From the NCBI GenBank assembly GCA_949747515.1, contig CATKFO010000038.1, positions 50,896 to 114,895 on the forward strand: a stretch of DNA of 64,000 bases, written 5' to 3'. Below are positions 23,350 to 26,300 of the stretch, in pieces. Position numbers: made by a program. This DNA comes from an uncultured Eubacteriales bacterium (lineage in GTDB: Bacteria > Bacillota > Clostridia > Oscillospirales > CAG-272). The stretch's first letter is position 1. Every line of letters starts with the position of its first letter.

Positions 23350-26300
23350 CTATAGGGTGTCCGAATAATTATACGCCGTCGAGATCGACGCGCTGCGCTC
23401 TAGCGCCCGACGCAATTTCCGTTATTTCCTGAGTTATTGCCGATTGTCTTACTCGATTGTACTGTAACGATAAGCCGGCAAGTATTTTATCTGCGTTTTG
23501 TCCGGCCGAGTTCATAGCGATCATCCTTGAATTCTGTTCGCTGCAAAAGCTGTCGACTAACGCGCTGTAAATGTAACCGGTAACATAGCTTTGTATTACA
23601 TGCTCGAGAACGACTTCTACAGACGGAGTAAATTCAAAAGCTTTATGCTCGGCGCCTTCGTTTTCTGGGAAAAACTGATTTCTATGAAAGGGAAGCAGTC
23701 TTGTAGCGGTAGCTTCGGGAGTCAGAGAATTCTTCATATCCGTATACATTACGAATATTTTGTCAAGTTCTCCTTGGTCGTACCTTTCGAGAAGCTTTGA
23801 ACATATTTCGCGAGCTCTTTGCATAGTTGGATTTTGAGCGGGATAGAGAAAGGTTTCCTCAATGGGAATATGCTTTCTCATGAAATATTGTCTTCCATAC
23901 TCTCCGACTACGAAAAGCCTTGTGTCCGGATGAGTTTTAAGCGTTTCCTCTACCATTTTTAGAACGTTATGATTGTATGCTCCCGCAAGGCCTTTGTCCG
24001 AGGTGATTACAAGGCAACCGTATGCTCCGCTGAGGCTGTCGGAGCCTTCCGGCGGATAGAAATAGCGACTGTCTATATCTGGAGCGGTACGAAATATTCT
24101 TTTTATTTCAACCTGTAAATATTTAAAATACGGTCGAGTTTTGTCGAGTTCCGCTTTCGCGCGTCTAAGCTTTGTGGAGGATATGAGATACATAGCGTTA
24201 GTAATTTTTTGCGTGTCTCTAACGCTTTTTATCCTATTTTTTATTTCTTTAGTATTCGGCATTTATCTGTACTCCGAAGCGTAACTTTCACGGAATTTTG
24301 ACGCGTACTCTATAATTGTTTTTCGCATTTCAGACGATAACGTTTTTTTGGTAATTATTTCAGAAATTATCTCAGGATGCTTTTCTTCAAAAAAGTTCAG
24401 CATATTTCCCTGGAAATCTTTAACCTTGTTTGTAGGAATCCCCGTAAAAATGTGCGCGGACGCGGCGATAAGCGTAATTGCCTGAGACGAAAGATTCATG
24501 GGAGAATATTGAGGCTGTCTCAACAGCTGTACGAGTCCCTGACCATACGATAACTGTTCCTTTGTTGCGTCGTCAAGATCGCTTGCAAATTGAGTAAAAA
24601 CTTCCATCTCTCGGTATTGAGCAAGATCAAGACGTATAGATCCAGCCGCTGATTTCATCGCTTTAGTTTGAGCTGCTCCGCCGACGCGGGAAACTGAAAG
24701 TCCTACGTTCACAGCGGGACGCTGTCCTGAGAAAAACAGATCGCTTTCAAGAAATATCTGACCGTCGGTTATAGATATAATATTAGTTGGAATATATGCT
24801 GAAACGTCTCCGGCTTGAGTTTCAACAATAGGAAGGGCGGTCATGCTTCCGCCTCCTAATTTGTCGGAAAGGCGAGCTGATCGCTCGAGAAGTCTTGAAT
24901 GAAGATAAAATACGTCTCCGGGATATGCCTCGCGTCCGGGAGAACGTTCAAGTAAAAGGCTAATCGCGCGGTACGCTATCGCATGTTTCGATAGGTCGTC
25001 GTAAACAATAAGAACGTCCCGACCTTTATTCATAAAATATTCGGCTATAGCGCATCCGGCGTATGGAGCTATATATTGAAGGGGAGCAGGATCACCCGCT
25101 CCTGCGTTTATAATTACGGTATAGTCCATTGCTCCGCGTACTCTTAGATTTTCAGCTAACTGAGCGGTTGAACTTGCCTTTTGACCGATGGAAACATAGA
25201 TACATATAACGTTTTTGTCTTTTTGATTGAGAATCGTATCGATCGCTATAGCAGTTTTTCCTGTTTGTCTATCTCCGATTATAAGCTCTCGCTGACCTCG
25301 ACCGATAGGAAACATTGAATCAATTGCTAAGATTCCTGTTTCGAGCGGTTCGCATACCGGTTGACGATCTATGATTCCGGGGGCCGGAGACTCAACAGGA
25401 TAATAATCCTCTTCTTCAATTGGACCAAGGCCGTCTATAGGAGCTCCCAAAGCGTTGACAATGCGTCCGAGAAATCCGTCTCCTACCGGAACTCCGGCGT
25501 TTTTGCCCGTTCTAACGGCTTCCATTCCTTCAGTAAGGTCTTCGTCGTCTCCGAAAATAATACATCCGATTTTGTCGCGTTTTAAATCTTGTACCATTCC
25601 TTTAACGCCGTTCTCAAAAACAACTATTTCGCCGTATCTTGCATGCTCGAGACCTGATAAAGACGCGATTCCGTCGCCAACAGAAGTAATACGCCCTATT
25701 TCTTGACCGCGAGCCTTTAGATAAAAGTCCTCTATTTTCTTTTTTACAAGAGGAATAATGTCGGATTCGTTCGAAGAAACTAGCTGTCCGAGATAATCTT
25801 TTAGCTGCATGAGGCGGCCGTGGTCTGTCCAATCGTAAACCTTTCCGCCTACCGTTAATTTGAATCCGCGTTTAATTGAGTCGTCTTTTATTATTTCAAG
25901 TGGTAAATTTCCGTATTTTTTTTCAATAAAAGCGTTAATACGCGACAACTGCTCTTCATTTGGAAGCGCCGAGCAGAGAAGCGTGGCGGAATCATTATTA
26001 CTTTTGCTGTCCGTCGGCATTACCGTCCTCCTTTACGCTGTTGAGAAAACTATCGTATATCGCTCCGTCGTTCGAGTTGTTTCCAAGCATTAGCTTTTCC
26101 GCGGCGGCGACTACCATACCGGCGATTTCCTCTTTGGCTCCCTTCATAATCTTTCTTTTTTCAGCGTTCGCCGTATTTTCCGCTTCAATTATGATCTTTT
26201 CTGAACGGCGTTTAGCCTCTTCAAGTTTCAATTTTGCTTCGCTCTCCGAAGCTCTCGCCGCCTCGGCTCTAGCCCTAGCGATTTCTTCGTTGGCTCCTTC

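What the first reader, a model, noticed from the sequence alone, without database searches (positions are those of the whole stretch)
24263..26020. ATP synthase alpha subunit carries a fused delta/OSCP C-terminal domain and the operon has no separate atpH
Seen in the sequence:
- The minus-strand operon reads atpB-atpE-atpF-[585-aa ORF]-atpG-atpD-atpC. The slot normally held by atpH is empty.
- atpF (stop at 25998) overlaps the start of the 585-aa ORF (26020) by 23 nt.
- From about residue 90 the ORF is an ordinary alpha subunit (ITSVGDGIA, GDRQTGKT). It is about 80-90 aa longer than the usual alpha of roughly 500 aa.
- The extra residues (LPNEEQLSRINAFIEKKYGNLPLEIIKDDSIKRGFKLTVGGKVYDWTDHGRLMQLKDYL, nt about 25757-26020) line up by eye with the C-terminal third of bacterial delta (pattern D.SLIGG..V.VG..V.D.S....L..L...L).
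- The N-terminal helical bundle of delta, about 100 aa, is absent.
- I see no in-frame ATG/GTG/TTG near the canonical alpha N-terminus, so all three alpha copies should carry the domain.

Established knowledge: delta is normally a single-copy stator subunit. Its N-terminal domain caps the alpha N-termini and its C-terminal part contacts the b stalk. b-delta fusions are known in mycobacteria.

Inference: the delta-NTD/alpha contact may have been replaced by a covalent link. That creates a 3:1 stoichiometry puzzle for stator attachment.
Basis: partly seen in the sequence, partly recalled or inferred. Interest (0 to 1): 0.7.

Follow-up and report, generated by a model that had tools for sequence, protein, structure and literature searches.

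The report
Natural delta-CTD–alpha fused ATP synthase subunit
In this bacterium the ATP synthase alpha subunit carries, fused to its front end, the stalk-docking half of the delta subunit, and there is no separate delta gene in the operon; engineers built the same design in 2025 to give the enzyme up to three stators, and the same paper noted it briefly in one other bacterial group.

Summary
Window 24263-26020 (-) is one 585-aa ORF with a strong Shine-Dalgarno site. Residues about 11-80 are a complete delta/OSCP C-terminal domain. A linker of about 5-8 residues follows, then a full-length F1 alpha subunit. The operon reads atpB-atpE-atpF-[fusion]-atpG-atpD-atpC with no atpH. No delta N-terminal domain is encoded anywhere in the 64-kb window.

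The fusion is not an assembly error. The same architecture and operon occur in a GC-rich Eubacteriales MAG and in a very abundant Christensenellaceae-type lineage. An exhaustive profile search found 431 protein clusters with this N-terminal region.

The protein is collinear, across the junction, with PDB 9JC1 chain I. That chain is the engineered Bacillus PS3 deltaΔN-alpha fusion of Ueno et al. (Nat Commun 2025, PMC12229609). [quoted passage not shown] The same paper notes a natural fusion of this kind in Acidaminococcus fermentans, untested.

This is therefore a new member, in Clostridia, of a kind already flagged in the literature. That answer remains unproven for any natural enzyme.

The parts
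24263..26020 (-). 585-aa deltaΔN-alpha fusion ORF, including the stop codon at 24263-24265
   Evidence: It aligns with PDB 9jc1_I in one stretch, residues 21-569 to chain residues 15-569.
26027..26033 (-). Shine-Dalgarno AAGGAGG, 6 nt upstream of the fusion ORF's ATG and inside the 3' end of atpF
   Evidence: Read directly from the sequence.
25781..25990 (-). Residues about 11-80: complete delta/OSCP C-terminal domain with topology beta-alpha-beta-beta-beta-alpha
   Evidence: Pfam OSCP positions 114-172 of 172. Clostridia delta HMM, E = 1.3e-14. AlphaFold pLDDT about 75-90. Foldseek top hits are delta/OSCP C-terminal domains.
25766..25780 (-). Residues about 81-85 (VSSNE): short linker between the last delta helix and the alpha N-terminal helix
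   Evidence: Alignments. The spacing from the YDW motif to the GDGI motif is 52 residues here, 51-60 across the family, and 54 in the engineered fusion.
24266..25765 (-). Residues 86-585: full-length F1 alpha subunit with N-terminal helix, beta-barrel crown, GDRQTGKT nucleotide-binding domain and C-terminal domain
   Evidence: TIGR00962 751.7 bits. Pfam ATP-synt_ab_N, ATP-synt_ab and ATP-synt_ab_C.
25998..26510 (-). atpF (b subunit), 170 aa from ATG 26510. The C-terminal YDSFL motif is conserved.
   Evidence: Pfam ATP-synt_B. Alignment with three other operons has Y152, D153, F155 and L156 invariant.
26553..26921 (-). atpE (c subunit), 122 aa, with an N-terminal extension of about 50 aa that looks like a signal peptide followed by an acidic stretch
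   Evidence: Pfam ATP-synt_C at residues 55-118. The extension is shared with L001 and L002 but absent in L005.
26977..27828 (-). atpB (a subunit), 283 aa
   Evidence: Pfam ATP-synt_A.
23369..24262 (-). atpG (gamma). Its start codon directly abuts the fusion ORF's stop codon.
   Evidence: Pfam ATP-synt 299 bits. Sequence context.
21925..23340 (-). atpD (beta)
   Evidence: ORF and translation with GGAGVGKT.
21487..21912 (-). atpC (epsilon)
   Evidence: Pfam ATP-synt_DE_N and ATP-synt_DE.

Best explanation
The ORF encodes a natural deltaΔN-alpha fusion. [quoted passage not shown] Here it is attached through a linker of about 5-8 residues to the N-terminal helix of every alpha subunit. The N-terminal helical bundle of delta normally sits on the three-fold axis, captures the alpha N-termini and limits the enzyme to one stalk. 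That bundle has been lost.

Shown:
- the domain identity;
- collinearity with the engineered fusion;
- conservation of the architecture and of the atpH-less operon across diverged Clostridia.

Inferred from the engineered Bacillus PS3 enzyme:
- the fused domain is the stator anchor;
- all three alphas carry an equivalent dock, so the complex can recruit more than one b2-a stator unit, up to three;
- more stators raise the number of H+ moved per ATP. This would suit a low-energy fermentative anaerobe, either for making ATP at low proton-motive force or for pumping more H+ per ATP hydrolysed.
For: Collinearity with the engineered fusion:
- the ORF makes a single-stretch alignment to 9jc1_I, the delta-alpha fusion chain;
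- 9jc1_I is also the best PDB hit of a 40-sequence profile of the natural N-terminal regions, with profile positions 4-94 matching chain residues 5-98 at E = 2e-9;
- the junction spacing matches: 52 residues here, 54 in the engineered protein, 51-60 in the family.

Conservation:
- the same operon occurs in L001 (Eubacteriales MAG, high GC) and in L002-L004;
- the 588-aa form is listed in 2110 blocks of the collection;
- relatives at 65-83% identity are all 573-593 aa;
- 431 clusters reach E <= 1e-3 in an exhaustive search;
- P20, G52, F53, D63 and W64 are invariant in the delta domain;
- the b C-terminal YD[SA]FL motif is conserved.

Mechanism by analogy (PMC12229609):
- the engineered deltaΔN-alpha FoF1 binds b2 canonically;
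- it shows 0, 1, 2 or 3 stalks in 15, 51, 26 and 8% of particles;
- every stalk carries an a-subunit, and the H+/ATP ratio is 5.8;
- the authors predict a multi-stalk enzyme for the natural A. fermentans fusion.

Chloroflexus F1Fo, which has a shortened delta N-terminal domain, has two stalks and two a-subunits in nature (PMC12002316).
Against: - No natural deltaΔN-alpha enzyme has been purified or imaged, so the stalk number here is pure inference.
- Even the engineered enzyme was mostly single-stalk on cryo-EM grids.
- Nothing in the sequence fixes the a:b:alpha expression ratio or the c-ring size.
- Only 64 kb of the genome were searched for a stand-alone delta.
Confidence: 0.5

Rival explanations
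1. The fusion is the same, but the enzyme keeps a single stalk. The covalent link only replaces the anchoring role of the lost delta N-terminal domain. One of the three delta C-terminal domains binds the only b2-a unit, and the other two stay idle.
For: All the identity evidence applies equally. In the engineered enzyme, 51% of particles had one stalk. The atpB start has only a weak SD-like context, while the fusion ORF has AAGGAGG. That is compatible with low a-subunit expression.
Against: The engineered enzyme's biochemistry indicated about two stalks per complex, and its authors attribute the single-stalk particles to loss on the grid. Nothing in the architecture would prevent further b2-a units from docking on equivalent sites.
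Confidence: 0.4
2. The fusion is an artefact or is not expressed as such. A sequencing frameshift or a missed stop might hide a short delta gene followed by a normal atpA. Alternatively, alpha might be made separately from the internal ATG at residue 71.
For: An in-frame ATG exists at residue 71. Many database relatives are frameshifted fragments.
Against: The continuous ORF recurs in independent assemblies at 38-83% identity and in GC-rich and AT-rich genomes. M71 has no SD and is L or Q in the closest relatives. The junction spacing is tightly conserved.
Confidence: 0.03
3. A full-length delta encoded elsewhere in the genome still caps F1. The fused domain would then be an accessory or a vestige.
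For: Only 64 kb were searchable. Stand-alone deltas of 165-180 aa do exist in related Clostridia.
Against: No delta N-terminal domain was found in the window or in the 7-18 kb around four related operons. The fused domain keeps delta's invariant residues. Loss of atpH from its conserved operon slot in many lineages argues for replacement rather than relocation.
Confidence: 0.07

Closest known systems
Engineered Bacillus PS3 deltaΔN-alpha fused FoF1 (PDB 9JC1; Ueno et al., Nat Commun 2025, PMC12229609)
   Same: Delta residues about 105-178 are fused by a short linker to the alpha N-terminus, the delta N-terminal domain is deleted, and there is no free delta. The window protein aligns to chain I in one stretch across the junction, and the junction spacing is nearly identical.
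   Different: The engineered protein is man-made, uses a GGSGGS-type linker, has epsilon truncated and sits in a Bacillus background. The window protein is natural, about 23% identical in the delta domain, and has a leader of about 10 residues. Its operon encodes a c subunit with an N-terminal extension.
Natural deltaΔN-alpha gene fusion of Acidaminococcus fermentans (UniProt D2RLW6) and the entries G4Q3K6 and A0A1I2C5T3, noted in the Discussion and Supplementary Fig. 9 of PMC12229609
   Same: The described architecture matches: delta and alpha fused, delta N-terminal domain missing, no atpH in the operon.
   Different: Acidaminococcus is a Negativicute (from my own knowledge of taxonomy, not tested here). 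The window and its relatives fall with Christensenellaceae and Eubacteriales MAGs. I could not retrieve D2RLW6, so I could not test whether the fusions share one origin. Neither has been characterised experimentally.
Chloroflexus aurantiacus F1Fo (PDB 9ITJ; PMC12002316)
   Same: It is a natural F-type enzyme in which a reduced delta N-terminal domain allows more than one stalk: two stalks and two a-subunits. Its delta C-terminal domain is the top Foldseek hit of the window domain.
   Different: Its delta is a separate subunit with a four-helix N-terminal domain that dimerises. It is not fused to alpha, and it has two stalks rather than a possible three.
Mycobacterial b-delta fusion (for example PDB 7JG5 chain d)
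   Same: The delta domain is covalently joined to a neighbouring stator subunit, and its C-terminal domain is homologous.
   Different: The fusion partner is b, not alpha. The full delta is retained and present in a single copy, so it raises no stoichiometry issue.
Canonical bacterial delta (E. coli 6OQR chain W, PS3 6N2Y chain I)
   Same: The C-terminal domain is homologous in sequence and fold.
   Different: Canonical delta is a free, single-copy subunit of about 177 aa with an N-terminal helical bundle. That bundle is absent here.

Membership tests
F1 ATP synthase alpha subunit (atpA, TIGR00962) | Full-length match above the curated cut-off | tested here: met
   751.7 bits against 484.45, residues 84-581 to model positions 3-502 of 503.
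F1 ATP synthase alpha subunit (atpA, TIGR00962) | P-loop GDRQTGKT and the three Pfam alpha/beta domains | tested here: met
   ATP-synt_ab_N, ATP-synt_ab and ATP-synt_ab_C are all above cut-off. The motif is present in the translation.
F1 ATP synthase alpha subunit (atpA, TIGR00962) | Position between atpF/atpH and atpG in an F-type operon | tested here: met
Delta/OSCP subunit (PF00213, TIGR01145) | C-terminal alpha/beta domain | tested here: met
   PF00213 23.8 and 26.1 bits against a gathering score of 22.3, profile positions 114-172. Clostridia delta HMM E = 1.3e-14. Fold match.
Delta/OSCP subunit (PF00213, TIGR01145) | N-terminal helical bundle of about 100 aa | tested here: not met
   Only about 10 residues precede the first strand of the C-terminal domain. 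TIGR01145 scores 18.9 bits against a cut-off of 57.5. No N-terminal-domain match was found in the window. The protein is therefore not a full delta.
Natural or engineered deltaΔN-alpha fused F-ATP synthase (as in PMC12229609) | Delta C-terminal domain and alpha in one polypeptide, in that order, joined by a short linker | tested here: met
Natural or engineered deltaΔN-alpha fused F-ATP synthase (as in PMC12229609) | Delta N-terminal domain absent and no separate atpH in the operon | tested here: met
   The rest of the genome was not available.
Natural or engineered deltaΔN-alpha fused F-ATP synthase (as in PMC12229609) | More than one peripheral stalk and a-subunit per complex, and a raised H+/ATP ratio | not testable with these tools
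   This needs cryo-EM, stoichiometry measurements or thermodynamic H+/ATP measurement.
N-type (alternate) F1Fo ATPase | The alt_F1F0 alpha model above its cut-off, and atpDCQRBEFAG gene order | tested here: not met
   TIGR03324 scores 600.8 against 750.5. The gene order is the classical atpBEF-A-GDC.

The most novel reading that the evidence does not exclude
This operon, and the large Christensenellaceae, Eubacteriales and Oscillospiraceae family it represents, may encode a naturally triple-stalk F-type ATP synthase with three a-subunits around one c-ring. Its H+/ATP ratio would then be two to three times the canonical value. That would make it a distinct bioenergetic gear, used by abundant low-energy gut fermenters. 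The full-length delta-alpha and partial-N-terminal-domain fusions seen in relatives would be evolutionary intermediates.
Probability: 0.35. Interest if true: 0.85.

Novelty: new member of a known kind. Interest (0 to 1): 0.55.

Why it matters
The H+/ATP ratio has been thought to vary in nature only through c-ring size. In 2025 an engineered deltaΔN-alpha enzyme showed that multiplying the stators can also raise the ratio, and a two-stalk enzyme was found in Chloroflexus.

Natural deltaΔN-alpha fusions are the obvious candidates for a three-stator enzyme, but none has been studied. This window shows the design is not a curiosity of Acidaminococcus. It is a conserved, widespread architecture in gut Clostridia:
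- the search returned hundreds of protein clusters;
- one form is listed in 2110 blocks of the collection;
- apparent evolutionary intermediates exist in relatives.

That supplies many test organisms and a comparative data set. If the multi-stalk model holds, energy-budget models for these fermenters would change.

Tried and rejected
- A word-indexed search with the N-terminal 138 aa gave only one fragment. The exhaustive HMMER search was needed.
- The third word-indexed search, with a 40-sequence profile, mostly returned fragments and Lachnospiraceae stand-alone deltas. It added little on taxonomy.
- An exact look-up of the window protein's encoding contig failed twice. The taxon is therefore inferred from relatives.
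- The afdb50 fold library was unavailable. I could not retrieve D2RLW6 or survey UniProt fusions.
- The full-length AlphaFold model was poor in the nucleotide-binding domain because the alignment was shallow (mean pLDDT 64.7). I used only its N-terminal part and re-modelled residues 1-105.
- P0182 (832 aa) looked like a larger fusion but is an internal duplication from an assembly artefact.
- I considered Na+ specificity of the c subunit. The position equivalent to Q32 is Met, so the full Na+ motif is absent. This rests on my own alignment to the I. tartaricus motif and was not followed further.
- The promoter and terminator scan only loosely brackets the operon, with a minus-strand promoter-like site at 28183-28154 and a terminator-like site at 21437-21423. 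I do not rely on it.
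Full report
**1. Observation**

The minus strand of the window carries atpB (26977-27828), atpE (26553-26921), atpF (25998-26510/26519), a 585-aa ORF (24263-26020), atpG (23369-24262), atpD (21925-23340) and atpC (21487-21912) (Pfam assignments).

The 585-aa ORF starts at an ATG that lies 6 nt downstream of AAGGAGG. It overlaps the end of atpF by 23 nt. There is no ORF in the slot normally held by atpH.

The alpha part:
- TIGR00962 (atpA) matches residues 84-581 to model positions 3-502 of 503, at 751.7 bits against a cut-off of 484.45.

The delta part:
- Pfam OSCP (PF00213) matches residues 21-77 to the last 59 positions of its 172-position profile. The score is just above the gathering threshold: 23.8 bits in the whole protein and 26.1 bits for the N-terminal 101 aa, against 22.3.
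- That margin is thin, so I built a profile from 18 stand-alone deltas of related Clostridia. It hits ORF residues 13-81 at profile positions 94-164 with E = 1.3e-14. It finds nothing else in six-frame translations of the window. A profile of the N-terminal domain alone also finds nothing.
- AlphaFold models place residues 9-80 in a confident beta-alpha-beta-beta-beta-alpha unit (pLDDT about 75-90). This agrees with the description of the delta C-terminal domain in PMC12002316: a four-stranded sheet with two helices.
- In a Foldseek search of the PDB, the 46 best hits are delta or OSCP chains, or fusion chains that contain delta (mycobacterial b-delta, the engineered 9JC1 delta-alpha). All are matched at their C-terminal domains.

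It has no Shine-Dalgarno sequence. It is Leu or Gln in the closest homologues, which are 82-83% identical overall. It is therefore unlikely to be used.

**2. The fusion is not an artefact**

- The identical protein is in NCBI on a contig of 137,777 bp (P0181).
- Full-length relatives at 65-83% identity are all 573-593 aa, and most carry a precomputed OSCP hit.
- A 588-aa form is listed in 2110 blocks of the collection, on contigs up to 2.77 Mb. Its operon in three independent assemblies is atpB-atpE-atpF-fusion-atpG-atpD-atpC. Close relatives are labelled Christensenellaceae by NCBI.
- A GC-rich Eubacteriales MAG (L001) has the same operon with a 583-aa fusion that is only 38% identical in the N-terminal region.
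- An exhaustive profile search of 1.84 billion representatives found 431 clusters at E <= 1e-3 and 110 at E <= 1e-10. Most have the domain at the very N-terminus and run on into the alpha N-terminal helix.
- Across 27-40 diverged sequences, P20, G52, F53, D63 and W64 are invariant in the 27- and 28-row alignments A3/A4; in the 40-row A2 only P20, Q24, G52 and F53 are invariant and D63 and W64 are nearly so. Q24, F31, Y62, G68 and R69 are nearly invariant in A3/A4.
- The distance from the delta YDW motif to the alpha GDGI motif is confined to 51-60 residues, and is 52 here.

**3. What it is**

The PDB search was decisive. The window protein aligns in one uninterrupted stretch, residues 21-569, to residues 15-569 of 9jc1 chain I. 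That chain is annotated 'ATP synthase delta subunit, ATP synthase subunit alpha'. A profile of the natural N-terminal regions also has 9jc1_I as its best PDB hit. The match covers the delta domain, the linker and the alpha N-terminal helix.

9JC1 is the engineered Bacillus PS3 enzyme of Ueno et al. (Nat Commun 2025, PMC12229609). The authors deleted delta residues 2-104 and fused residues 105-178 through a short linker to the alpha N-terminus. Their reasoning was that the delta N-terminal domain, sitting on the pseudo-three-fold axis, is what restricts FoF1 to one peripheral stalk.

The engineered enzyme had these properties:
- It bound b2 in the canonical way.
- It showed up to three stalks, each with an a-subunit.
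- It had an H+/ATP ratio of 5.8.
- It made ATP at a proton-motive force too low for the wild-type enzyme.

[quoted passage not shown] They consider a multi-stalk structure highly likely, 'which awaits further experimental verification'. I found no later paper that follows up natural fusions.

A related natural case is Chloroflexus aurantiacus F1Fo. There a shortened delta N-terminal domain dimerises, and the enzyme has two stalks and two a-subunits (PMC12002316).

**4. Mechanism**

Shown: each alpha of this organism carries a complete delta C-terminal domain at the position and spacing that works in the engineered enzyme. The b subunit keeps a C-terminal YD[SA]FL motif that is invariant across four diverged operons.

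Inferred:
- The fused domain is the b2 dock and replaces free delta.
- Because the three docks are equivalent and the symmetry-breaking N-terminal domain is gone, the complex can recruit two or three b2-a units.
- The number of H+ per ATP is then multiplied accordingly.

The main rival is that only one stator is assembled and two docks stay empty. Nothing in the sequence decides between these two readings. I put the multi-stalk reading at about 0.5 and the single-stalk reading at about 0.4. The artefact and second-delta explanations together get about 0.1.

A speculative point, from my own reading of the alignment: helix 1 of the c subunit is Ala-rich (TLGGAIAMG) where GxGxGxG is usual. In alkaliphilic Bacillus such motifs go with larger c-rings, which would give more room for extra a-subunits. 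I did not test this.

**5. Relatives with other architectures**

The exhaustive search also returned the following:
- Full-length delta (N-terminal and C-terminal domains) fused to alpha. One example is L005 from an Oscillospiraceae MAG. Its operon runs atpB-atpE-atpF and then an OSCP+ATP-synt_ab_N ORF that is cut by the contig end.
- Forms with a partial N-terminal region of about 30-60 residues.
- Stand-alone deltas of 165-180 aa.
- Proteins with two delta C-terminal domains in tandem.

This looks like a series: separate delta, then a delta-alpha fusion, then loss of the N-terminal domain. I did not build a phylogeny.

**6. Novelty and score**

The kind has been named in the literature, both as an engineered enzyme and, briefly, as a natural gene fusion in Acidaminococcus. 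It is not categorically new.

What the window adds:
- a new lineage (Clostridia of the Christensenellaceae/Eubacteriales type);
- evidence that the architecture is widespread and abundant in metagenomes;
- candidate intermediates.

The central functional question is whether any natural F-ATP synthase has three stators. It is open and directly testable with these organisms. I score interest at 0.55.

Noticed in passing
window 26553-26921 (-); L001 6978-7412; L002 7116-7448: The c subunit has an N-terminal extension of 40-75 aa. It resembles a signal peptide (MKK, a hydrophobic stretch, then A-x-A) followed by an acidic, Ala/Thr-rich tail. The extension is present in all three deltaΔN-alpha operons examined. 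It is absent from the 72-aa c subunit of the full-length delta-alpha operon in L005. I did not determine whether it is cleaved or whether it relates to the stator arrangement.
   Followed up: partly
L005 6001-6744 (Oscillospiraceae MAG GCA_017480395.1); proteins P0020, P0022, P0046-48, P0088, P0137: Full-length delta, with both N- and C-terminal domains, is fused in frame to alpha, and the operon has no separate atpH. Three copies of a full delta per F1 raise their own steric puzzle. These proteins may be the evolutionary precursors of the deltaΔN-alpha form.
   Followed up: partly
proteins P0005, P0302 (fragments) and P0147 (145 aa): These proteins carry two delta C-terminal domains in tandem. 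P0147 appears to be a stand-alone double C-terminal-domain protein without an N-terminal bundle.
   Followed up: no
window 19202-21301 (+): A 699-aa ORF combines a YidC/60KD_IMP membrane insertase domain (residues 30-268) with a domain resembling CDP-glycerol glycerophosphotransferase (residues 436-612). It lies directly downstream of a signal peptidase I gene at 18526-19128. This is an unusual fusion.
   Followed up: no
window 25808-25810 (-), codon 71 of the fusion ORF: This is the only in-frame start codon between the delta domain and the alpha homology. It has no SD and is not conserved in relatives.
   Followed up: yes
window 26510 vs 26519 (-): The mechanical ORF list starts atpF at TTG 26519. 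Homologues and the GAGAGG position favour ATG 26510, giving MNIPLNIDW. The 173-aa version is not in the protein collection.
   Followed up: partly
window 3870-3977 (+): A TPP riboswitch scores 78.3 bits against a gathering score of 54.3. It is unrelated to the finding.
   Followed up: no
window 12251-14851 (+) and 37677-40502 (-): Two large proteins each carry three SLH domains, and one also has an acetyl-xylan-esterase domain. This suggests a cell wall bearing an S-layer.
   Followed up: no
protein P0182 (832 aa, ENA): This apparent giant alpha is an internal duplication of about 330 residues. It is most likely an assembly artefact and not a new architecture.
   Followed up: yes
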